A DNA stretch of 64,000 nt from a virus (taxonomy: Duplodnaviria > Heunggongvirae > Uroviricota > Caudoviricetes), in IMG/VR virus record IMGVR_UViG_3300031994_000063; one strand, 5' to 3'. Numbering within the stretch: the first letter of the stretch is position 1; each line of letters opens with the position of its first letter. The position numbers and the translations under genes were made by a program. This document shows positions 5,749 to 39,468 of the stretch, in pieces. Under the pieces are notes generated by a model that saw only the letters and a program-made list of their open reading frames with translations, was not told the origin of the DNA and searched no databases.

Positions 5749-5821
5749 CTAGGTGTAGTTCAGTTGGTAGAATGCGTCATTTGGGATGATGTGGTCGGTG
5801 GTTCGAGTCCACTTACCTAGA
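5749..5821 (+). tRNA. tRNA-Pro(TGG)
   Basis: Acceptor ctaggtg/tacctag. Anticodon stem cgtca/tgatg with loop tttggga. T-arm ggtgg-ttcgagt-ccact. Confidence 0.6.
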
Positions 5822-5957
5822 CAAATTGGTGGTTCAGTAAGAGGATTGCGCAAGGCGGTACTAAAAGAAACTAGAGAGTAGTGAATCCTATGGATAGGTG
5901 AATAAATTCTGTAGGAACGCAGCCTATCGGCAACGTGGGTTCGAATCCCACACCATC

Positions 5958-6075
5958 AACTAAGGATACTTACAGCAAATGTAACTTTGTTACAATTTCT
6001 TGGTTCGAATCCAAGCTAAACCTATGGTTTAAGCACCCATTCGTGGGTATTGGTATATTAAAACAAAAGTATCCG
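5958..6075 (+). ncRNA. hairpin-bounded element copy c (ggatact..tacagcaa..agtatcc) with internal T-arm and UUCG hairpin
   Basis: Closing helix ggatact/agtatcc. Internal cttgg-ttcgaat-ccaag and ccca-ttcg-tggg. Confidence 0.45.
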
Positions 6076-8701: not shown

Positions 8702-9270
8702 ATTATGCGCCTATGGGGGAATTAGTAGACCCGTTAGTCTTAGGAACTAATGTTGAAATATACGTATCAGTGCAAGTCTGATTAGGCGTACAAAAGGTGC
8801 TACGACAAGACTGAGGAAGCCAATTTGATAGTGGCGAGTTCGTATAACGCTGTAGTTAAATGGTATTTGAGTAACAGCCTTTATTAATAGGTATAGGTCA
8901 GTAGGCTTGGAAGCAGCCATCTGTTAAAGAGTGACAGTACTCAGTAAGTGGTGAGGTAATATGTTTTATGGGTTTACACCTCGTGCAAAAACCCTAGGTG
9001 CATCTAGATAATTTGGGAGTTGCAAATCCCTAACTGGCGAGAGACGAGAGGTCGAAGTCGGAGAGTCTGGAATATAAGACCGAATGAGGCTCGTGAAGTC
9101 AAGCTAGAGAACCTTTAAAGCCGCTGCTGGACTCTTGGACGAAACAGTAAACGTAAATCGTGAGGCGTAAAGTTAACTGCGCTGTCTTTGGCGTAACAGC
9201 ACACCTGTAACTATTTATTTTTAGTTGATATTTATTATTATTAAATAATAGGTATCAACTTTTTAATATT

Positions 9271-9510
9271 ATGAAACTTTCAGAAAATAGAATAAGACAA
9301 ATCATTAGAGAAACAATTGAAGAAGCAACTTTTGGTAATGTAGACCAGTTTACTCCTTATACACCAGAGGAAAGAGAACAGAACTTTAAAGGATTAGGAA
9401 GGATGGGTAATCCATCCTACGATGCATTTAAGGCTTGGAGAGAAGAGGGATTGAAGAGAGGCATTCCTTCAATACAACTTTCTTGGAACAATTACATCAA
9501 GCAAAAATAA
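9271..9510 (+). CDS. hypothetical protein
   Basis: 79-aa ORF on the coding strand. No motifs recognised. Confidence 0.5.
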   Translation: MKLSENRIRQIIRETIEEATFGNVDQFTPYTPEEREQNFKGLGRMGNPSYDAFKAWREEGLKRGIPSIQLSWNNYIKQK

Positions 9511-9532
9511 TTCTCTAAAAAATGTGAAATAA

Positions 9533-9568
9533 TTTGGCTATTCCAATTTTTTTTCATATATTTGCATT
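9533..9568 (+). promoter_or_regulatory. Bacteroidetes-type promoter upstream of small membrane peptide gene
   Basis: tttggctattccaattttttttcatatatttgcattg. Confidence 0.6.
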
Positions 9569-9586
9569 GTTAAAACGAAAAAACAA

Positions 9587-14637: not shown

Positions 14638-14714
14638 CTGGGATGAAGCTTAAGTAGTATACAGCATCGGCCTGTTAAGCCGAGGACAGTGGGTGCAAGT
14701 CCCACCATCCCAGC
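14638..14714 (+). tRNA. tRNA-Asn(GTT)
   Basis: Acceptor ctgggat/atcccag. Anticodon stem tcggc/gccga with loop ctgttaa. T-arm gtggg-tgcaagt-cccac. Confidence 0.55.
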
Positions 14715-17777: not shown

Positions 17778-17849
17778 TCCCTCATAGCTCAGAAGTAGAG
17801 CACGTGTCTCTTAAACATGGGGTCGAGATTGCAAAATTCTCTGGGGGAA
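17778..17849 (+). tRNA. tRNA-Lys(CTT)
   Basis: Acceptor tccctca/tggggga. Anticodon stem cgtgt/acatg with loop ctcttaa. Confidence 0.5.
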
Positions 17850-23053: not shown

Positions 23054-23500
23054 CAATTTTTTATCATGGGCTTGTAATGGATTTGACAGCAATGCATTTG
23101 GTAAGAAACAAGCAGTGGGCATACACTTGAAATAGCAAAAAAAATATAAACGGCGAGAATGTTAATTCTCCTGCTTACGAGTACGCTATTGCAGCGTAAG
23201 TAAGCCGAGAGGCTAGGCTCTTAGGAACAGAACATCCTAGCATTCTTTCTTTAGTCATCTTTTAGTTTTCCTTGTTTTCACAAAACAAGGTGGTCTCAAA
23301 GGCGGTGTCTTCGGACACTTTGGGGAAGCTTGTATAATTTCTTATGGAATGGTTGTTTGGACCGCAGTTCGACTCTGCGCAAGTCCACTTAACTACTTGA
23401 AAATCAAACGCTTAACAAAATTTAAGAAAAAACTTCTTGAAAATTTTGGAACTTTCAAAAATTTTATATATCTTTGCATTGTTAAACAAAAAGACATACA

Positions 23501-23782
23501 ATGAGTAAAATTTTAGATAAAGATTTCAGAAACGAACTATATAAAAGCCTTCAAGAGGCTGGTTATAGCAAAGGAGAGGCTACTAATATTGTTAGTGTAA
23601 AATATTGTGAGGCTCTTAAAATCAATTTAGTTGATAAACTTAGAGAACAAGCAGATAATATTGAGCATGGCAAAGAGGAACTATTGCTTAGTGTTGATGA
23701 ATATAGTAGTATCCTTTCAGAATTGGCTAAACTCAAAGAGTTTTTCGACAAAAAAGAAGAAAAAAATGCAAATAAATCTTAA
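23501..23782 (+). CDS. hypothetical protein
   Basis: 93 aa. Promoter ttttggaactttcaaaaattttatatatctttgcattg upstream. Confidence 0.5.
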   Translation: MSKILDKDFRNELYKSLQEAGYSKGEATNIVSVKYCEALKINLVDKLREQADNIEHGKEELLLSVDEYSSILSELAKLKEFFDKKEEKNANKS

Positions 23783-23841
23783 AAAATTTGGATATTAAAA
23801 ATATTTTTCATATCTTTGCATTGTTGATTTGAAAATAGCAA

Positions 23842-23906
23842 GGAAACTTACAGCAAATTATTCTTAACATCAAATTGTCACTTTGAAACGTTTAGAAAAG
23901 GTTTCC
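23842..23906 (+). ncRNA. hairpin-bounded element copy i
   Basis: ggaaac ttacagcaa ... ggtttcc. Confidence 0.45.
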
Positions 23907-23924
23907 GATTTAAATACATAATAT

Positions 23925-24009
23925 CGTGGGATAGTGTAATGGTAACATGCAAGGCTCATAACCTTGAGACGGAACTCGCATCGTGTTGGTTCGAATCCAA
24001 CTCCCGCAA
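23925..24009 (+). tRNA. tRNA-Met(CAT)-like with C1·A72 and 18-nt variable region
   Basis: Anticodon stem caagg/ccttg with loop ctcataa. T-arm gttgg-ttcgaat-ccaac. 3' end tcccgcaa resembles bacterial initiator tRNA. Confidence 0.45.
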
Positions 24010-24012
24010 CTA

Positions 24013-24170
24013 ATTTTGTGGTGGACAAATCAAAAAACCACCTTTTGGAAGATACCAGAGGAGAACGTCAGTAATGACGATGTAGACAAATGGGCATTAA
24101 GTTCGTGCTTAATGTGTCACTTCGGTGGCTTCGCTAGTGCAAATCTAGCTCTACCAACAAATGTAGTATA
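24013..24170 (+). ncRNA. structured small RNA, copy 1 of a ~160-nt duplicated element
   Basis: Hairpins ggtgg..ccacc, acgtca-GUAA-tgacgt (GNRA), cattaag-ttcgtg-cttaatg, tcac-UUCG-gtgg, gctag-tgcaaat-ctagc. Second copy at 24316 carries compensatory changes in three helices. Confidence 0.6.
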
Positions 24171-24315
24171 AACGCTCAGGTGCAATCGGCAGTAAAGGTT
24201 GGCGAGGAAAGTGAGGTTGCGACAAACACACAACTGTATGAAACATAGCAGATGTCCTTTACCATTAAATTAGTTCTGCAAAATGAATTAGCCTTTACAA
24301 TACTATAATTATATC

Positions 24316-24474
24316 TTGTGGTGGACAAGTTAAAAAACCACCTTTTGGTTAGTACCAGAGGAGAACGTCAGCAATGACGATGTAGACAAATGGGCATCAA
24401 GTTCGTGCTTGATGTGCTTCTTCGGAAGCTTCAGCAGTGCAAATCTGCTCTAACCAACTAGATATGCCTTTTCG
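24316..24474 (+). ncRNA. structured small RNA, copy 2 of the duplicated element
   Basis: ~88% identical to copy 1. Helices catcaag/cttgatg, cttc-UUCG-gaag and agcag/ctgct preserve pairing through double substitutions. GCAA replaces GUAA in the tetraloop. Confidence 0.6.
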
Positions 24475-25588
24475 TGCCGTAGACAACGGTAAAAATGGGT
24501 TTTATGTGGTTAAACAATCCATATCTATGGTAACTTCGGGAGCCATAATTCTAGAGAACGTGTACTAGAAAAAAATGAATTGGGGAAGGTATTCTATAAT
24601 GGTGTAAAGAATTGGAGCTTGGGATAGAAGCCCACCTCGTAAGAGGAAGCAGTTTACTGATTATAATAATCCAAAATGGAAATAATACCCAAAAGAATAA
24701 GCCGATTCTAAGAGGAAATATCTTGTGAAAGATATAAGGCTGATGGCTAGCTTTCGTAGCCAGATAGAAGGATAATCCAGTGATGGGATAAATGAGACGG
24801 ACATTGACAACTAAGCCGACTCAGATGCTCTGGTTTCCCAGAGCATTTCACTGAAAAGCATATGGTACGGTATGTCGTTCGGTAGGTAAACTGTGGGACA
24901 TACTACCTAGGTTAACCGCTTAGGTTGAGTAGTGATACAATAGATTACCATATGGAACTCGATACAATAGTCACCAGTTGGCGTGTTGGGTTCAAGTAAA
25001 CATTCGTCTTAACGTGAAAGGCGTGGTCTATAAGCGTTAAGAACCGTAAGGCTGAGAATGGGTATTAGTGCTACAGACCTGTGGTGGGTTTGGCATAGGA
25101 AGGCGATTTAGTGGGCTGTGTTCAAAAGACACGGATGCTAAGGGTCGCACCTCGTCTTCCATTAGTTGTGAGTTGTAGCTCAAGTGGTAGAGCAGCCGAC
25201 TTGAAATCAGCGTGTTACAGGTTCGATTCCTGTCGATTCTAATAATAGAATTATAGAAGCAAAAGTGTGCGACACTGAGCAGATAAAATGCACTTATCTC
25301 TCCTGCAATATGGAGGCATCGGTGACTCGCAAGGAATCCGATGAACGAGTAAAAGTAGTCATCTGAGTTAACAGGAGGCATCCTGTGAATCCGCAAGAGC
25401 TTGGTGGTGAAATGAATGTTATGATTCTGTACCGAGAGGTTTAAATCAGTAAGAGTTTGGTAGTTTTCGCAAAACTATCGTGCATGATGTCTACGTCTGC
25501 CGTAAGGTAGCGTGTGAAGAGCAAGTTCCAACGCTTGTATAAAGGCATCAACAATAAGGTCAAATTCTCAGCCTTTTTGTATTTATAT

Positions 25589-25713
25589 AGGGATTTAGCT
25601 TAATTGGCAAGAGTAATTTGTTGCGACTTAAGGAATAAAGCACTCTCGACTTCGGAACAGAGTGTGCCTTTAACTGTTAATAAACGATGGCGGTTCGAGT
25701 CCGTCAGTCCCTG
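25589..25713 (+). ncRNA. tRNA-like with ~50-nt insertion (contains repeat tctcgacttcggaacaga)
   Basis: Perfect acceptor agggatt/agtccct. D-arm tagcttaattggcaagag. T-arm ggcgg-ttcgagt-ccgtc. Total 125 nt. Confidence 0.35.
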
Positions 25714-25856
25714 CAATAAGTAATTCTCATGGGGTATAAACACGTTGGGTGGTGACCTGCTGGTCGGTTTCATGCATAAGAAGACCATACGAGAGGCGGT
25801 AAATATAAGACCTCTTGGAGTTCGAATCTCCAATACTCCACTTAAACAATTAACAT

Positions 25857-26183
25857 ATGAGAGAATTTACTTATAGCGGTTTCGAAAATCAAGAAACTTG
25901 CAATCACCTCAGAGGAGGTGAGACGTGTAAAGTAACTGGTATTGGAAATTCTATGACCCCTATTCTTAAATCAAGACAAGCGGTTATATGTGAACCAGTA
26001 AAAGATGATACAAAACTAGAAAAGAAAGATATTGTTCTTTGCAAAGTTAGAGGTCATCATTATCTGCACCTAATCCATGCAATTAAAAATGATAGTGAAT
26101 ATCTTATTGGTAGCAATAGAGGGCATATGAACGGATGGGTAGGTAGAAACCAAATCTACGGAAAAGTAGTAGAGATTCTTTAA
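25857..26183 (+). CDS. S24-family (LexA/UmuD-like) peptidase domain protein
   Basis: VTGIGNSMTPIL (GDSM-like Ser motif), KKDIVLCKV, HLIHAIKNDSEYLIGSN and IYGKVVEIL follow the S24 C-terminal domain pattern. Confidence 0.55.
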   Translation: MREFTYSGFENQETCNHLRGGETCKVTGIGNSMTPILKSRQAVICEPVKDDTKLEKKDIVLCKVRGHHYLHLIHAIKNDSEYLIGSNRGHMNGWVGRNQIYGKVVEIL

Positions 26184-26230
26184 GGTCAAATGGTTGTAAT
26201 GAAGGTTCGATTCCTTCTGACTAACAAACG

Positions 26231-26302
26231 GGGGTATAGGCTAACAGGCTAAACTGATAGCTTTGCAAGCTATATTTGAGAGTTCGAGTCTCTCTACCTC
26301 CA
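26231..26302 (+). tRNA. tRNA-Ala(TGC)
   Basis: Acceptor gggggta/tacctcc. Anticodon stem atagc/gctat with loop tttgcaa. T-arm gagag-ttcgagt-ctctc. Confidence 0.6.
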
Positions 26303-26385
26303 CTAAGGTATTGGATAATGCTACGATGAGTAGGTAAAGAGTTTCGTAGTGTGGCTTTACCGTTTCCAATTCCTTAACCAATAGT

Positions 26386-26458
26386 GGGAACTTACAGCAA
26401 TGACTATATGGAATTTGCTTGAAACGAATACAACCGAAAAAAGTTCCCTTCAGCACAA
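26386..26458 (+). ncRNA. hairpin-bounded element copy j
   Basis: gggaactt acagcaatg ... aagttccc. Confidence 0.45.
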
Positions 26459-28054: not shown

Positions 28055-28145
28055 GGGCATATGGCAGAGTGGTTTAATGTGCTGAACTCTAAATTCAGTA
28101 TGGGCTTGAGAAAGTTCATCGTGGGTTCGAATCCTACTATGCTCG
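28055..28145 (+). tRNA. class II tRNA with anticodon CTA (putative amber suppressor)
   Basis: Acceptor gggcata/tatgctc. D-region tggcagagtggtttaatgt. Anticodon stem ctgaa/ttcag with loop ctctaaa. Long variable arm. T-arm gtggg-ttcgaat-cctac. Confidence 0.5.
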
Positions 28146-28244
28146 CTACAGCTAGTACAAAGTTAAAAATTGTTAAAGTTGAACTGATTATTTGGTTAGT
28201 TCACCTTTTTTTCGTACCTTTGCATCAATAAAACAATAAACAGC

Positions 28245-30089: not shown

Positions 30090-30510
30090 TATGATTACTG
30101 TGAGAAAATTTTGGACTATTGTATTCATAACAATTGCGTTGTCATTTTCTTTATTAGCCTATGCTGATACCTATTATTTCCAAGGTGTAAAGAAAAAAGA
30201 TACAAATGGCAAAGAATATCTTATTTTTAACGATGGACGAGTTGATATTGGTCTCAAGATAGATGAGAATGACAAATTGCAGTTAATTCCTATAATACCT
30301 AAAACCGACTCCATAGCGAAACAGAAAAAAAAAGACGAAAAAATGGAAAAAGAAAAAAAGAGTGTTGCAAACATTCAAAATTTTGTGAATAATATTTTGA
30401 AACTATCTGTCACCCTTATTGGAATGATAATTATTTTCCTTGTTGTTTCTGTTTTATGCGGCATAATTTGGATAATTGTTGGGATACTTACAATTTATAA
30501 AAAAAGTTAA
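30061..30510 (+). CDS. membrane protein (N- and C-terminal TM helices)
   Basis: FWTIVFITIALSFSLLAYA and LIGMIIIFLVVSVLCGIIWIIVGIL. Confidence 0.5.
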   Translation: MSFNLNKNINMITVRKFWTIVFITIALSFSLLAYADTYYFQGVKKKDTNGKEYLIFNDGRVDIGLKIDENDKLQLIPIIPKTDSIAKQKKKDEKMEKEKKSVANIQNFVNNILKLSVTLIGMIIIFLVVSVLCGIIWIIVGILTIYKKS

Positions 30511-30574
30511 TAAATTTGGCTATTCCAATGTTTTTTCATATCTTTGCATTGTGAAACAAAAAACATTATAAGTT

Positions 30575-39380: not shown

Positions 39381-39463
39381 AGTGGTATGGTAGAGTGGTC
39401 AATTGCGCTTCTCTCATAAGGAAGTTGGGAAACCTATCGCTGATTCGAATTCAGCTACCACTA
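39381..39463 (+). tRNA. tRNA(CAT) with long variable arm
   Basis: Acceptor agtggta/taccact. Anticodon stem cttct/ggaag with loop ctcataa. T-arm gctga-ttcgaat-tcagc. Confidence 0.5.
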
Positions 39464-39468
39464 CAAAG

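What the first reader, a model, noticed from the sequence alone, without database searches (positions are those of the whole stretch)
24013..24474. Duplicated ~160-nt structured small RNA with compensatory base changes between copies
Copies at 24013-24170 and 24316-24474 are ~88% identical. The differences fall as paired double substitutions that preserve three helices: cattaag/cttaatg vs catcaag/cttgatg, tcac-UUCG-gtgg vs cttc-UUCG-gaag, and gctag-tgcaaat-ctagc vs agcag-tgcaaat-ctgct. A GNRA tetraloop changes from GUAA to GCAA, and the 7-nt loop UGCAAAU is invariant. This is textbook covariation for a functional ncRNA of unknown class, located directly after a Met-type tRNA.
Basis: seen in the sequence. 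Interest (0 to 1): 0.75.

Follow-up and report, generated by a model that had tools for sequence, protein, structure and literature searches.

The report
Anticodon-less tRNA-like RNAs of jumbo phages
The two repeats are real copies of an undescribed, strongly conserved small RNA that is built like a transfer RNA but has no anticodon; it occurs in several copies among the tRNA genes of uncultivated giant phages, so it probably imitates a tRNA rather than reading codons.

Summary
The two copies are 87% identical, and 9 base pairs differ between them by compensatory double changes.

They belong to a family of at least 47 distinct copies in about 30 IMG/VR jumbo-phage loci. No copy was found in 185,579 prokaryotic species genomes, in GenBank phages or in Rfam. 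Across 41 distinct copies, 99.9% of cells are paired and 27 of 35 pairs covary.

The fold is a class-II tRNA cloverleaf:
- a 7-bp acceptor stem, then U8 A9;
- a 3-bp D stem;
- a variable-arm hairpin;
- a T arm with loop UGCAAAU;
- A73 and C74 at the 3' end.

Two features depart from a tRNA. A near-invariant insert of about 33 nt containing a hairpin sits in the D loop. The anticodon loop is replaced by a closed 8-bp stem.

The copies sit 3-5 nt behind tRNAs or behind each other, in tandems of up to four. They lie between an initiator-like tRNA and a GOLLD-like RNA. Half of them, including both window copies, carry a 5' H-type pseudoknot.

Best reading: these are non-decoding tRNA mimics cut out by the tRNA-processing enzymes. 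Their partner and function are unknown. This is a new RNA family of a known general kind.

The parts
23782..23824 (+). Promoter-like site of the repeated type TTTG...N...TAnnTTTGCA, upstream of the ncRNA cluster
   Evidence: It belongs to a repeat family with up to 19 copies in the window, placed ahead of genes and tRNA groups (D1-D7). From my own knowledge, the motif resembles the Bacteroidota -33/-7 promoter consensus. No + strand terminator-like site lies between 23300 and 26400.
23925..24010 (+). tRNA(CAU) with a long variable region and a C1xA72 mismatch (initiator-like), immediately upstream of copy 1
   Evidence: ARAGORN; Rfam tRNA 57 bits. The C1xA72 mismatch is read directly from the sequence.
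24015..24042 (+). 5' H-type pseudoknot of copy 1. S1 is UUUG 24015-18 with CAAA 24026-29. S2 is GGUGG 24020-24 with CCACC 24038-42. The A-rich loop 3 is 24030-37.
   Evidence: In 22 distinct copies, S1 pair 11:25 is CG 10, UA 7, GC 5. S2 pair 20:38 is GC 20, AU 1, UA 1. 95% of cells are paired, against 29-56% when partners are slid. The pseudoknot sequence pattern occurs only in front of this element.
24045..24158 (+). tRNA-like element, copy 1.
- Acceptor: 24046-52 with 24150-56, plus a possible U-1:A73 pair (24045:24157).
- U8 A9: 24053-54.
- D stem: 24055-57 with 24091-93.
- D loop: 24058-90, containing hairpin 24066-79 (loop GUAA); A18 G19 at 24084-85.
- G26: 24094.
- 'Anticodon' arm: 24095-24114, 8 bp, no 7-nt loop.
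- U44: 24115.
- Variable-arm hairpin: 24116-29.
- UUC: 24130-32.
- T arm: 24133-49, loop UGCAAAU 24138-44.
- A73: 24157. C74: 24158.
   Evidence: CM R1 scores 141.3 bits, E 2e-44. Structure and covariation. tRNA-likeness.
24315..24342 (+). 5' H-type pseudoknot of copy 2. S1 is CUUG 24315-18 with CAAG 24326-29. S2 is GGUGG 24320-24 with CCACC 24338-42.
   Evidence: The S1 closing pair differs from copy 1 in a compensatory way (U-A in copy 1, C-G in copy 2).
24345..24458 (+). tRNA-like element, copy 2. It has the same architecture as copy 1, shifted by exactly +300 nt. The acceptor stem is perfectly paired and the hairpin loop is GCAA.
   Evidence: CM R1 scores 143.5 bits, E 3e-45. 9 compensatory pairs relative to copy 1.

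Best explanation
The two repeats are paralogous genes for an undescribed phage RNA family. It is a tRNA-derived, class-II-shaped cloverleaf that keeps the acceptor stem, U8/A9, a 3-bp D stem, the D-loop/T-loop elbow contact, a variable-arm hairpin, the T arm and an A73-C74 end.

Two features set it apart from a tRNA. A near-invariant expansion of about 33 nt, with a protruding hairpin, sits in the D loop. A closed 8-bp stem replaces the anticodon loop, so the RNA cannot decode.

Inferred mechanism:
- The genes are co-transcribed with tRNAs, tmRNA and a GOLLD-like RNA.
- RNase P (5') and the tRNA 3'-end machinery with the CCA-adding enzyme (3') excise them like tRNAs.
- They accumulate as RNAs of about 112-115 nt.
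- These act in trans as non-decoding tRNA mimics. They occupy a factor that reads the acceptor end (U1:A72, G2:C71, A73) and the elbow, and the conserved D-loop insert gives specificity.
- The multi-copy dosage suggests a stoichiometric role, as a decoy/sponge or as a non-ribosomal acceptor.
- The 5' pseudoknot is an accessory module, used mainly where no tRNA-like helix lies just upstream.

Shown: the family, the fold, the tRNA ancestry and the genomic arrangement. Inferred: transcription, processing and trans action. Unknown: the partner.
For: **Family and fold**
- 30 distinct copies were found with a 17-mer scan. CM R1 finds 43 strong matches of 106-145 bits.
- 99.9% of cells are paired and 27 of 35 pairs are compensatory. 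All six helices covary, including the D stem (18:82 is CG 29, GC 11, UA 1).
- Conserved G-U and U-G pairs fix the + strand.

**tRNA ancestry**
- The same CM gives full-length weaker hits (13-38 bits) to genuine tRNAs.
- The T-arm 3' strand abuts the acceptor 3' strand. U8 A9 and the UUC before the T stem are invariant.
- In real tRNAs of the window, T-loop U55 goes with D-loop GG and T-loop G55 with D-loop AG. The element obeys the same rule: GUAGAC with xGC in 45 copies, GUGGAC with UUC in 2, no exceptions.
- Nearly all tRNA genes here encode N73 plus C74 only, and so do the elements. The element's acceptor end equals that of the phage tRNA-Gln.
- ARAGORN calls an 89-nt tRNA once the D-loop insert is deleted and a 7-nt loop is placed on the closed arm. 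It calls nothing in the native sequence.

**Arrangement**
- Copies lie 3-5 nt after a tRNA or after another copy, in tandems of up to four back-to-back copies, five per locus.
- No terminator-like site occurs on the + strand from 23300 to 26400.
- Independent operons exist with their own promoter and terminator, far from any tRNA or GOLLD. This argues for a trans-acting product.

**Distribution**
- Phage-only: none of the 16 pattern matches in GTDB species genomes is a true copy. No match in GenBank phages. No element within 4 kb of the Lak match.
Against: - There are no expression, end-mapping or binding data.
- RNase P/Z cleavage and CCA addition are inferred from architecture only.
- The Rfam tRNA model does not match the element even at E<=10. 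ARAGORN does not call it.
- The pseudoknot ends only 3 nt before U1 and could hinder RNase P.
- All homologues come from one clade of related phages. The covariation counts therefore include inherited changes, and the 18:55 rule inside the family rests on 2 variant copies.
- No candidate protein partner was identified. The decoy-versus-acceptor distinction is open.
- CM E-values are rough because calibration was shortened.
Confidence: 0.6

Rival explanations
1. It is a processing punctuation element only. The tRNA-like fold would exist to recruit RNase P/Z so that neighbouring non-tRNA RNAs (motif S, the GOLLD-like RNA) get defined ends. The A-rich pseudoknot would remain as a protective 3' cap on the upstream RNA. 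Known analogues are MALAT1 triple helix plus mascRNA, and plant mitochondrial t-elements. The excised element itself would be a by-product.
For: - The pseudoknot ends 3 nt before the predicted RNase P site.
- It is enriched where the upstream sequence is not a tRNA-like RNA: 15 of 19 such copies against 7 of 27, Fisher p = 8e-4, my classification of the list.
- The last copy always precedes the GOLLD-like RNA.
- RNase P is known to cut tRNA-like structures in other RNAs (PMC11143913). t-elements shape transcript ends in plant mitochondria (PMC1920247).
Against: - About 25 nearly invariant unpaired nucleotides in the D-loop insert are not needed for RNase P/Z recognition.
- Tandems of up to four copies with nothing between them serve no punctuation purpose.
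- Stand-alone operons contain only the element and a second tRNA-like RNA before a terminator.
- 7 pseudoknots follow a tRNA or another element directly, where there is nothing to cap.
Confidence: 0.2
2. It is a partner or cargo of the GOLLD nanocage. The tRNA-like RNAs would be made next to GOLLD because they dock to it or are enclosed by it, as has been proposed for tRNAs found in the GOLLD linker.
For: - In the window and in all six other loci tested, a GOLLD-like RNA (E 1e-8 to 1e-21, full model) lies 350-640 nt downstream.
- A tRNA-Ser is embedded in its linker here.
- Kretsch et al. 2025 report that GOLLD env-38 lies downstream of a Met-tRNA, and speculate that the cages hold phage tRNAs (PMC12286853).
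- The mostly GNRA loop on the protruding hairpin could dock to a receptor.
Against: - Copies exist in operons with no GOLLD within the fetched loci.
- Copy number varies from 1 to 5 next to one GOLLD.
- Lak megaphages share a 76-77% identical stretch with the GOLLD-like region (I did not check it with the Rfam model) but have no element within 4 kb.
- The element is not part of the GOLLD fold. The env-38 construct starts at a hairpin equivalent to about 24753.
- There is no direct evidence of interaction.
Confidence: 0.1
3. It is a self-cleaving ribozyme or a ligand-sensing cis-regulator (riboswitch or T-box-like) placed after tRNAs.
For: - It has many invariant unpaired nucleotides in a multi-helix junction.
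- It sits directly 3' of tRNAs, as the HDV-like theta ribozymes of gut phages do (from my own knowledge).
Against: - No Rfam ribozyme or riboswitch family matches even at E<=10.
- The topology is a simple 5-way cloverleaf with a 5'/3' closing stem, not a nested double pseudoknot.
- No ORF follows the element. The stand-alone operons end in a terminator.
- The invariant nucleotides map onto tRNA core positions.
Confidence: 0.04
4. They are decaying tRNA pseudogenes or a selfish repeat without function.
For: They are clearly tRNA-derived, and tRNA finders do not recognise them.
Against: - 27 of 35 pairs are maintained by compensatory change.
- Long unpaired stretches are invariant across at least 41 distinct copies from many contigs.
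- Both window copies are kept at the same places in related phages L019, L026 and L006.
Confidence: 0.02

Closest known systems
Class II (long variable arm) tRNAs, especially the phage's own tRNAs with T-loop UGCAAxU and D-loop ..GUAG.. (window tRNA-Leu 8707-8791; tRNA(CAU) at L007:2778-2860)
   Same: - 7-bp acceptor stem plus 5-bp T stem, contiguous.
- U8 A9 and a 3-bp D stem.
- G26/U44 junction.
- Variable-arm hairpin followed by UUC.
- 7-nt T loop.
- A18:G55-type elbow rule.
- Only A73 and C74 are encoded at the 3' end.
- Placement in tRNA arrays.

   Different: - There is no 7-nt anticodon loop. The arm is 8 bp closed by UUCGUG or GGUAA.
- The D loop is expanded from about 11 nt to 33 nt or more, with an internal hairpin.
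- The Rfam tRNA model and ARAGORN do not score it.

[quoted passage not shown]
   Same: These are small stable non-tRNA RNAs encoded inside a phage tRNA operon. They are co-transcribed and matured with the tRNAs, and their function is still unknown.
   Different: No sequence relation was tested, because no T4 sequence comparison was run. The host phylum differs. The present family has a full cloverleaf, occurs in tandem multi-copy arrays and carries a 5' pseudoknot.
tRNA-like domains of tmRNA and of bacterial/phage Y RNAs (YrlA)
   Same: They are non-decoding tRNA mimics that keep the acceptor/T-arm or elbow features to engage tRNA-binding factors (PMC4201824 for YrlA).
   Different: - No Rfam tmRNA or YrlA match falls on the element.
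- There is no G3:U70. Pair 3:70 is GC 34, AU 5, GU 1, UA 1.
- There is no Ro-binding stem.
- A normal tmRNA gene lies nearby, at 23068-23390.
mascRNA/MALAT1 triple helix and plant mitochondrial t-elements (PMC1920247)
   Same: A tRNA-like fold sits inside a longer transcript as an RNase P/Z cleavage signal. An A-rich higher-order structure lies immediately 5' of the cleavage site.
   Different: - Those systems are eukaryotic or organellar.
- Here the tRNA-like RNA carries a large conserved insert.
- It occurs in tandem and in stand-alone operons.
- The pseudoknot is present in only about half of the copies.
Plant-virus 3' tRNA-like structures with an upstream pseudoknot domain
   Same: A tRNA mimic is preceded by pseudoknot(s). 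RNase P and tRNA enzymes recognise such structures (PMC11143913).
   Different: Those lie at the 3' ends of RNA genomes and have pseudoknotted acceptor stems. Here the acceptor is a normal stem, and the RNA is a DNA-phage gene product.
GOLLD RNA (Rfam RF02032)
   Same: Same locus, same phage lineage, and the same association with tRNA islands and a Met-tRNA (PMC12286853).
   Different: The element lies outside the GOLLD fold and is a separate module of about 115 nt.

Membership tests
tRNA (Rfam RF00005 / canonical cloverleaf) | 7-bp acceptor stem directly continued by a 5-bp T stem (12-bp acceptor/T helix), with a discriminator base at the 3' end | tested here: met
   The P1 and T-stem 3' strands are adjacent. 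5 of 8 P1 pairs and 5 of 5 T-stem pairs covary. A73 is invariant.
tRNA (Rfam RF00005 / canonical cloverleaf) | U8, N9, a D stem, and a D-loop/T-loop elbow contact (18:55, 19:56) | tested here: met
   U8 A9 are invariant. The 3-bp D stem covaries. D-loop A18 or G18 tracks T-loop G55 or U55 in 47 of 47 copies and in the real tRNAs of the window.
tRNA (Rfam RF00005 / canonical cloverleaf) | 7-nt T loop with U54, C56, A58 | tested here: met
   The loop is UGCAAAU in 40 of 41 copies. G55 also occurs in genuine tRNAs of these phages.
tRNA (Rfam RF00005 / canonical cloverleaf) | 5-bp anticodon stem with a 7-nt loop carrying U33 and an anticodon | tested here: not met
   The arm is 8 bp (6-7 bp in a minority) and is closed by UUCGUG or GGUAA. 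No helix other than the T arm has a 7-nt loop.
tRNA (Rfam RF00005 / canonical cloverleaf) | D loop of about 7-11 nt; recognition by the tRNA covariance model and by ARAGORN | tested here: not met
   The D loop is 33 nt or more and contains a hairpin. There is no RF00005 hit at E<=10 and no ARAGORN call. ARAGORN calls a tRNA only after both deviations are edited out.
tRNA-like processed ncRNA (RNase P / 3'-end / CCA-adding substrates) | Cleavage by RNase P at +1, and addition of CCA (or of CA onto the encoded C74) | not testable with these tools
   Only architecture and array spacing (3-5 nt) speak for it.
tmRNA tRNA-like domain | G3:U70 alanine identity, and a link to an mRNA-like ORF with pseudoknots | tested here: not met
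   Pair 3:70 is G:C or A:U in 39 of 41 copies. There is no RF00023 hit on the element. A separate tmRNA lies at 23068-23390.
Y RNA / YrlA | A Ro(Rsr)-binding stem plus a tRNA-like module; a match to the Rfam model | tested here: not met
   There is no Rfam hit at E<=10, and no extra long stem beyond the cloverleaf. The presence of an rsr gene was not examined.
GOLLD RNA | Being part of the conserved GOLLD 5'/3' domains (Rfam RF02032) | tested here: not met
   The model match is 25098-25574. The 5' domain starts at about 24753, by comparison with the env-38 construct. The elements end at 24158 and 24458.
Self-cleaving ribozymes (HDV-like/theta, hatchet, twister, hammerhead, pistol) | The family-specific fold (for example the nested double pseudoknot of HDV-like ribozymes) and a match to the Rfam model | tested here: not met
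   There are no hits at E<=10. The topology is a cloverleaf closed by 5'/3' pairing. Cleavage activity itself is not testable here.
H-type pseudoknot (5' module) | Two stems in which loop nucleotides of stem 1 pair downstream, each supported by covariation | tested here: inconclusive
   Each stem has one covarying pair (11:25 shows three pair types; 20:38 shows three pair types). 95% of cells are paired, against 29-56% when slid. Most pairs are invariant, however.

The most novel reading that the evidence does not exclude
The family would be a new class of phage effector RNA. It would be CCA-tailed, and possibly aminoacylated, but it could never decode. Made in high dose, it would capture an acceptor-end-reading or elbow-reading factor. 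That factor could be a host anti-phage toxin that modifies or cuts tRNA acceptor ends independently of the anticodon, or a tRNA-dependent transferase. Alternatively, the RNA could be the natural cargo or partner of the neighbouring GOLLD nanocage.

Two further anticodon-less tRNA-like RNAs share the same U1:A72 / G2:C71 / A73-C74 end. Together with these, the family would define a set of 'acceptor-end mimics' in giant phages.
Probability: 0.2. Interest if true: 0.85.

Novelty: new variant of a known kind. Interest (0 to 1): 0.62.

Why it matters
tRNA genes in phages are usually read as codon-usage helpers or as replacements for tRNAs cut by host defences. Here a phage lineage keeps 2-6 copies per genome of a tRNA chassis from which the decoding function has been removed and to which a conserved new module has been added. 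This implies a tRNA-related activity that does not pass through the ribosomal decoding site.

The family is compact (about 115 nt) and has very clean covariation. It is therefore a tractable target for structure determination and for pull-downs.

It sits between an initiator-like tRNA and a GOLLD-like RNA, whose function has been unknown since its discovery. This gives a concrete candidate to test for interaction with the GOLLD cage.

The family also shows that tRNA finders and Rfam miss whole groups of tRNA-derived RNAs in giant-phage tRNA islands. At least three kinds are visible in this window and its relatives.

Tried and rejected
- **Sarcin-ricin-loop mimic.** The variant UACGAGAGGAGAAC resembles AGUACGAGAGGAAC. 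I rejected this because C-to-G at that position covaries with G-to-C in ..AAAUSGG, so it is a D-stem pair.
- **HDV-like/theta ribozyme after a tRNA.** The topology does not fit and there are no Rfam hits.
- **Known Rfam family.** None matches the element at E<=10.
- **Domain of GOLLD.** Rejected.
- **Coding sequence.** A mechanical 62-aa ORF (23983-24171) overlaps the tRNA and copy 1. Copy 2 has no counterpart, and the substitutions are paired in stems.
- **Anticodon-stem-loop reading of the UGCAAAU hairpin.** Rejected. It is the T arm: it abuts the acceptor 3' strand, and the same loop is found in real tRNAs.
- **Bacterial or archaeal homologues.** There were 16 pattern matches in genome contigs, and none was confirmed by the CM.
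- **GenBank phages.** No match to the element. Only the spacer motif matched, in Flavobacterium phages.
- **Lak megaphages.** A stretch similar to the GOLLD-like region, but no element within 4 kb.
- **Pseudoknot pattern elsewhere.** All extra hits were a protein-coding motif, apart from two further true copies.
- **Flanking proteins of the stand-alone operons.** They are small hypothetical ORFs conserved only through synteny. I did not pursue them.
- **Literature.** Searches for a prior description found none.
- **K-turn in the D-loop insert.** No canonical motif by eye.
- **Not used.** The metagenome-contig scan was not used, because the viral collection already gave enough diversity.
Full report
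**1. The observation**

The window is an AT-rich stretch with more than 31 tRNA genes and a tmRNA, all on the + strand. This is typical of a tRNA island in a very large phage.

The two repeats are real. The repeat finder reports 24013-24146 and 24313-24446 at 87% identity. A pairwise alignment shows similarity from about 24013/24313 to 24158/24458.

RNAalifold on the two copies predicts 41 pairs. Nine of them differ between the copies on both sides while staying paired.

Each copy folds better than shuffled controls (z = -3.7 and -2.0). There is no credible ORF. A mechanical 62-aa frame overlaps copy 1 only.

**2. A family, not a local duplication**

An exact 17-mer from the conserved centre (GATGTAGACAAATGGGC) found 30 stretches in IMG/VR. 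Twenty-six of them contain the whole element, often several times.

An alignment of 30 distinct copies with a hand-drawn structure gave 99.7% paired cells and 22 of 36 compensatory pairs.

I built a covariance model from it (R1). It finds 43 strong matches (106-145 bits) in the window and 24 loci, and a few more in loci fetched later.

On the model-based alignment of 41 distinct copies:
- 99.9% of cells pair, against 35-43% with partners slid by 1-3 columns and 78.7% in column shuffles.
- 27 of 35 pairs have compensatory changes.
- Every one of the six helices covaries.

Conserved G-U and U-G pairs would be A-C mismatches on the other strand, so the RNA is read from the + strand. The sequences are related by descent, so the counts overstate independent events. 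Even so, the number of pair types per position (up to five) leaves no doubt that the structure is selected.

**3. What the structure is**

The fold is a five-helix junction closed by pairing of the 5' and 3' ends. Its details are those of a class II tRNA. Coordinates below are for copy 1; copy 2 is +300.

| Feature | Coordinates (copy 1) |
|---|---|
| 7-bp acceptor stem | 24046-52 with 24150-56 |
| possible eighth pair, U-1:A73 | 24045 with 24157 |
| invariant U8 A9 | 24053-54 |
| 3-bp D stem | 24055-57 with 24091-93 |
| G26 / U44 junction | 24094 / 24115 |
| helix in the anticodon-arm position | 24095-24114 |
| variable-arm hairpin | 24116-29 |
| invariant UUC | 24130-32 |
| 5-bp T stem with 7-nt loop UGCAAAU | 24133-49 |
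| T stem directly abutting the acceptor 3' strand, then A73, then C74 | 24150-56, 24157, 24158 |

Five independent results tie it to tRNA.

1. The model built only from the element gives full-length, weaker hits (13-38 bits) to genuine tRNAs of the window and the loci. The best are tRNA(CAU) genes that share the T loop UGCAAAU and a D loop ..GUAGUCAAA.
2. In the real tRNAs of the window, T loops with U55 go with a D-loop GG, and T loops with G55 go with AG. The element obeys the same tertiary rule. 45 distinct copies have GUAGAC with xGC, and the only 2 copies with GUGGAC have UUC.
3. Nearly every tRNA gene in the window encodes N73 and C74 but not the final CA. The element ends in the same way (A73 C74). 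Its acceptor end (U-1, U1:A72, G2:C71, G3:C70, A73) is identical to that of the phage tRNA-Gln.
4. ARAGORN finds nothing in the native copies. It calls an 89-nt tRNA with exactly these acceptor boundaries once the D-loop insert is deleted and a 7-nt loop is placed on the closed arm.
5. Gene spacing is that of tRNA arrays (see section 4).

**How it departs from a tRNA**

First, the D loop is 33 nt or more instead of about 11 nt. It reads GAGGAGAA-C[hairpin]G-AUGUAGACAAA. Both flanks are almost invariant. The hairpin is free in sequence and length, usually with a GNRA loop, and once carries a 24-nt insert.

Second, the 'anticodon' arm is an 8-bp helix capped by UUCGUG in 35 of 41 copies, or a 6-7-bp helix capped by GGUAA. 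There is no 7-nt loop. The RNA therefore cannot decode.

Rfam (4,227 families) has no match on the element even at E<=10.

**4. Context**

In the window the order is:
- a promoter-like site of the repeated TTTG...TAnnTTTGCA type (23782-23824);
- an initiator-like tRNA(CAU) with C1xA72 (23925-24010);
- pseudoknot + copy 1;
- a conserved spacer motif;
- pseudoknot + copy 2;
- about 290 nt of unassigned RNA;
- a GOLLD-like RNA with a tRNA-Ser in its linker;
- a 125-nt tRNA.

No + strand terminator-like site occurs in 23300-26400, so one long ncRNA transcript is plausible.

The same order recurs in related loci, with one to five copies. Up to four lie head-to-tail with only 3-5 nt between the C74 of one unit and the first stem nucleotide of the next, or after a tRNA. 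Single copies also sit between tRNA-Ile and tmRNA (L011, L030).

Stand-alone operons exist as well: promoter, about 90 nt of leader, pseudoknot, element, a second unusual tRNA-like RNA, terminator. They have no tRNA, GOLLD or any other Rfam match within the fetched loci of 11-15 kb.

A pattern scan of one genome from each of 185,579 prokaryotic species gave 16 matches, and the CM confirmed none of them. GenBank phages have no match to the element. Lak megaphages share a 76-77% identical stretch with the GOLLD-like region, but have no element within 4 kb of it. So far the family is confined to one group of uncultivated phages, on contigs of up to 412 kb. The tools do not state the habitat of these samples.

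**5. The 5' pseudoknot**

Both window copies, and 22 of 46 distinct copies overall, are preceded by YUUG-Y-GGUGG-A-CAAR-(N1-4)AAAAA-CCACC, which ends 3 nt before U1.

Two overlapping stems can form an H-type pseudoknot with an A-rich third loop. Each stem has one covarying pair (11:25 is CG 10, UA 7, GC 5; 20:38 is GC 20, AU 1, UA 1). 95% of cells are paired, against 29-56% when slid. Most positions are invariant, so I rate the pseudoknot as likely but not proven.

The sequence pattern is found only in front of this element.

It is present in 15 of 19 copies whose upstream neighbour is not a tRNA-like RNA, but in only 7 of 27 copies that follow a tRNA or another copy. The classification of the list is mine. 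Fisher p = 8e-4, not corrected for relatedness.

Two readings fit. It may stand in for an upstream structured helix during 5' processing. Or, after RNase P cleavage, it may remain as a 3' cap on the upstream RNA, as the MALAT1 triple helix does next to mascRNA.

**6. How it most likely works**

Shown:
- a selected, tRNA-derived, L-shape-compatible fold without an anticodon;
- gene placement and ends like those of tRNAs;
- multi-copy dosage;
- independent operons;
- phage-only distribution.

Inferred:
- co-transcription with the tRNAs;
- excision by RNase P and the tRNA 3'-end pathway, with completion of CCA on the encoded C74;
- accumulation as a stable RNA of about 115 nt.

RNase P is known to accept tRNA-like substrates (PMC11143913).

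Given the closed anticodon arm, the product must act outside decoding. Three observations point to a specific factor that reads the acceptor end and the elbow region:
- the acceptor end is invariant;
- two other anticodon-less tRNA-like RNAs share that end (window about 5826-5960, and the second RNA of the stand-alone operons);
- the D-loop insert, next to the elbow, is invariant.

The copy number suggests stoichiometric action. I therefore favour a non-decoding tRNA mimic, either a decoy/sponge or a non-ribosomal acceptor. I cannot name the partner.

**Rivals**
- Pure processing punctuation (0.2). The invariant insert, the tandems and the stand-alone operons argue against it.
- GOLLD partner or cargo (0.1). 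This is attractive because of the constant neighbourhood and the published speculation that GOLLD cages hold tRNAs (PMC12286853). It is not required, because copies occur without GOLLD and the Lak GOLLD-similar region has no copy within 4 kb.
- Ribozyme or riboswitch (0.04).
- Pseudogene (0.02).

**7. Comparison with known systems, and novelty**

The element works like a tRNA mimic, but it fails two defining tRNA features that I tested: the anticodon loop, and D-loop size with model recognition. I therefore do not file it as a tRNA.

It is also not:
- a tmRNA tRNA-like domain (no G3:U70, and a separate tmRNA lies nearby);
- a YrlA (no Rfam match);
- part of GOLLD.

The nearest functional analogues are listed below.
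- The stable 'species 1/2' RNAs of the T4 tRNA cluster. This is from my own knowledge and no sequence comparison was run.
- mascRNA and plant mitochondrial t-elements (PMC1920247).
- Plant-virus tRNA-like structures with upstream pseudoknots.

Seven literature searches found no description of this RNA. I rate it a new variant of a known kind: a new RNA family within the broad class of tRNA-derived mimics.

**8. Verdict**

The finding is real and more interesting in detail than first described, but the function remains open. Interest is 0.62. The most novel reading not excluded is a dedicated phage 'acceptor-end mimic' effector or a GOLLD partner. I give it a probability of about 0.2 and an interest of 0.85 if true.

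Noticed in passing
window 24753-25574 (Rfam match 25098-25574; tRNA-Ser 25169-25241 inside): A GOLLD-like RNA. It gives a full-length RF02032 match of 82 bits, E 3e-21, which is below Rfam's gathering score of 150. A tRNA-Ser is embedded in the linker. The same arrangement is found 350-640 nt downstream of the elements in L003, L004, L006, L007, L028 and L030. Lak megaphages share a 76-77% identical stretch with this region; I did not check that stretch with the Rfam model.
   Followed up: partly
window 24188-24271 (between the two copies); L050:1501-1584 (Flavobacterium phage FpV4): A conserved spacer motif (..GAGGAAARUGA..ACAACUGUAUGAAAYAUAGCAGAUGUCCUU..). It is 76% identical to an unannotated region of 29 Flavobacterium psychrophilum phages, where it lies about 450 nt upstream of an unannotated tmRNA gene. 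It is probably another small RNA of Bacteroidota phages.
   Followed up: partly
window ~5826-5960, directly after tRNA-Pro 5749-5822: A third kind of tRNA-like RNA, about 135 nt long. It has a canonical T arm (GUGGG-UUCGAAU-CCCAC) and the same termini as the element (UUGG...CAUCAAC). A large non-tRNA body lies in between. ARAGORN and Rfam do not call it, and CM R1 hits it weakly (21 bits).
   Followed up: no
L001:5519-5440 region (minus strand) and equivalents in L002, L013, L016, L023, L025, L029, L056: In stand-alone operons the element is followed at once by a second odd tRNA-like RNA (UGAUAGG-UA-...-GGUUCGAUUCC-..CCUAUCA-AC). It has a variable middle part, sometimes with a 7-nt loop centred on UCU. 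It shares the U1:A72, G2:C71, A73, C74 end. Neither ARAGORN nor Rfam recognises it.
   Followed up: partly
window 8707-8791, 14639-14713, 17778-17849 and other tRNAs: A lineage-specific tRNA elbow variant. tRNAs with T-loop UGC (G55) have AG instead of GG in the D loop, and tRNAs with UUC have GG. This suggests an A18:G55 alternative to G18:Psi55.
   Followed up: partly
window, all tRNA genes (e.g. 2264-2338 ... 39381-39464): Almost every tRNA gene encodes the discriminator plus C74 only (..NC). This implies that the CA end is added after transcription.
   Followed up: no
window 25589-25713; also L003:11390-11510, L004:6136-6261, L006:10358-10481, L007:3877-4000, L028:2962-3082, L030:4637-4757: A conserved tRNA of about 121-135 nt with an extra region of about 50 nt after the anticodon arm. 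It always lies just downstream of the GOLLD-like RNA.
   Followed up: no
window 28055-28146: A tRNA with anticodon CUA (amber suppressor; ARAGORN labels it 'Pyl') and a long variable arm. The same tRNA occurs in L004, L006, L007 and L030. It may indicate reassignment of TAG in these phages.
   Followed up: no
window 23925-24010: The tRNA(CAU) before copy 1 has the C1xA72 mismatch typical of bacterial initiator tRNAs, but it also carries a 15-nt variable region. That combination is unusual.
   Followed up: no
window 24459-24752: About 290 nt of non-coding sequence between copy 2 and the GOLLD-like RNA. It contains several hairpins, including CCG-UAGACAA-CGG, which repeats the GUAGACAA motif of the element's D loop. 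It is conserved in L006, L019 and L026 but absent from L003, L004, L012 and L028.
   Followed up: no
window, 19 sites such as 2095-2160, 9507-9572, 23761-23826, 30489-30554: A repeated promoter-like motif, AAATTTGG-N(17-20)-TAT(A/C)TTTGCA, lies ahead of genes and tRNA groups. It resembles the Bacteroidota -33/-7 consensus (from my own knowledge) and suggests a Bacteroidota host.
   Followed up: no
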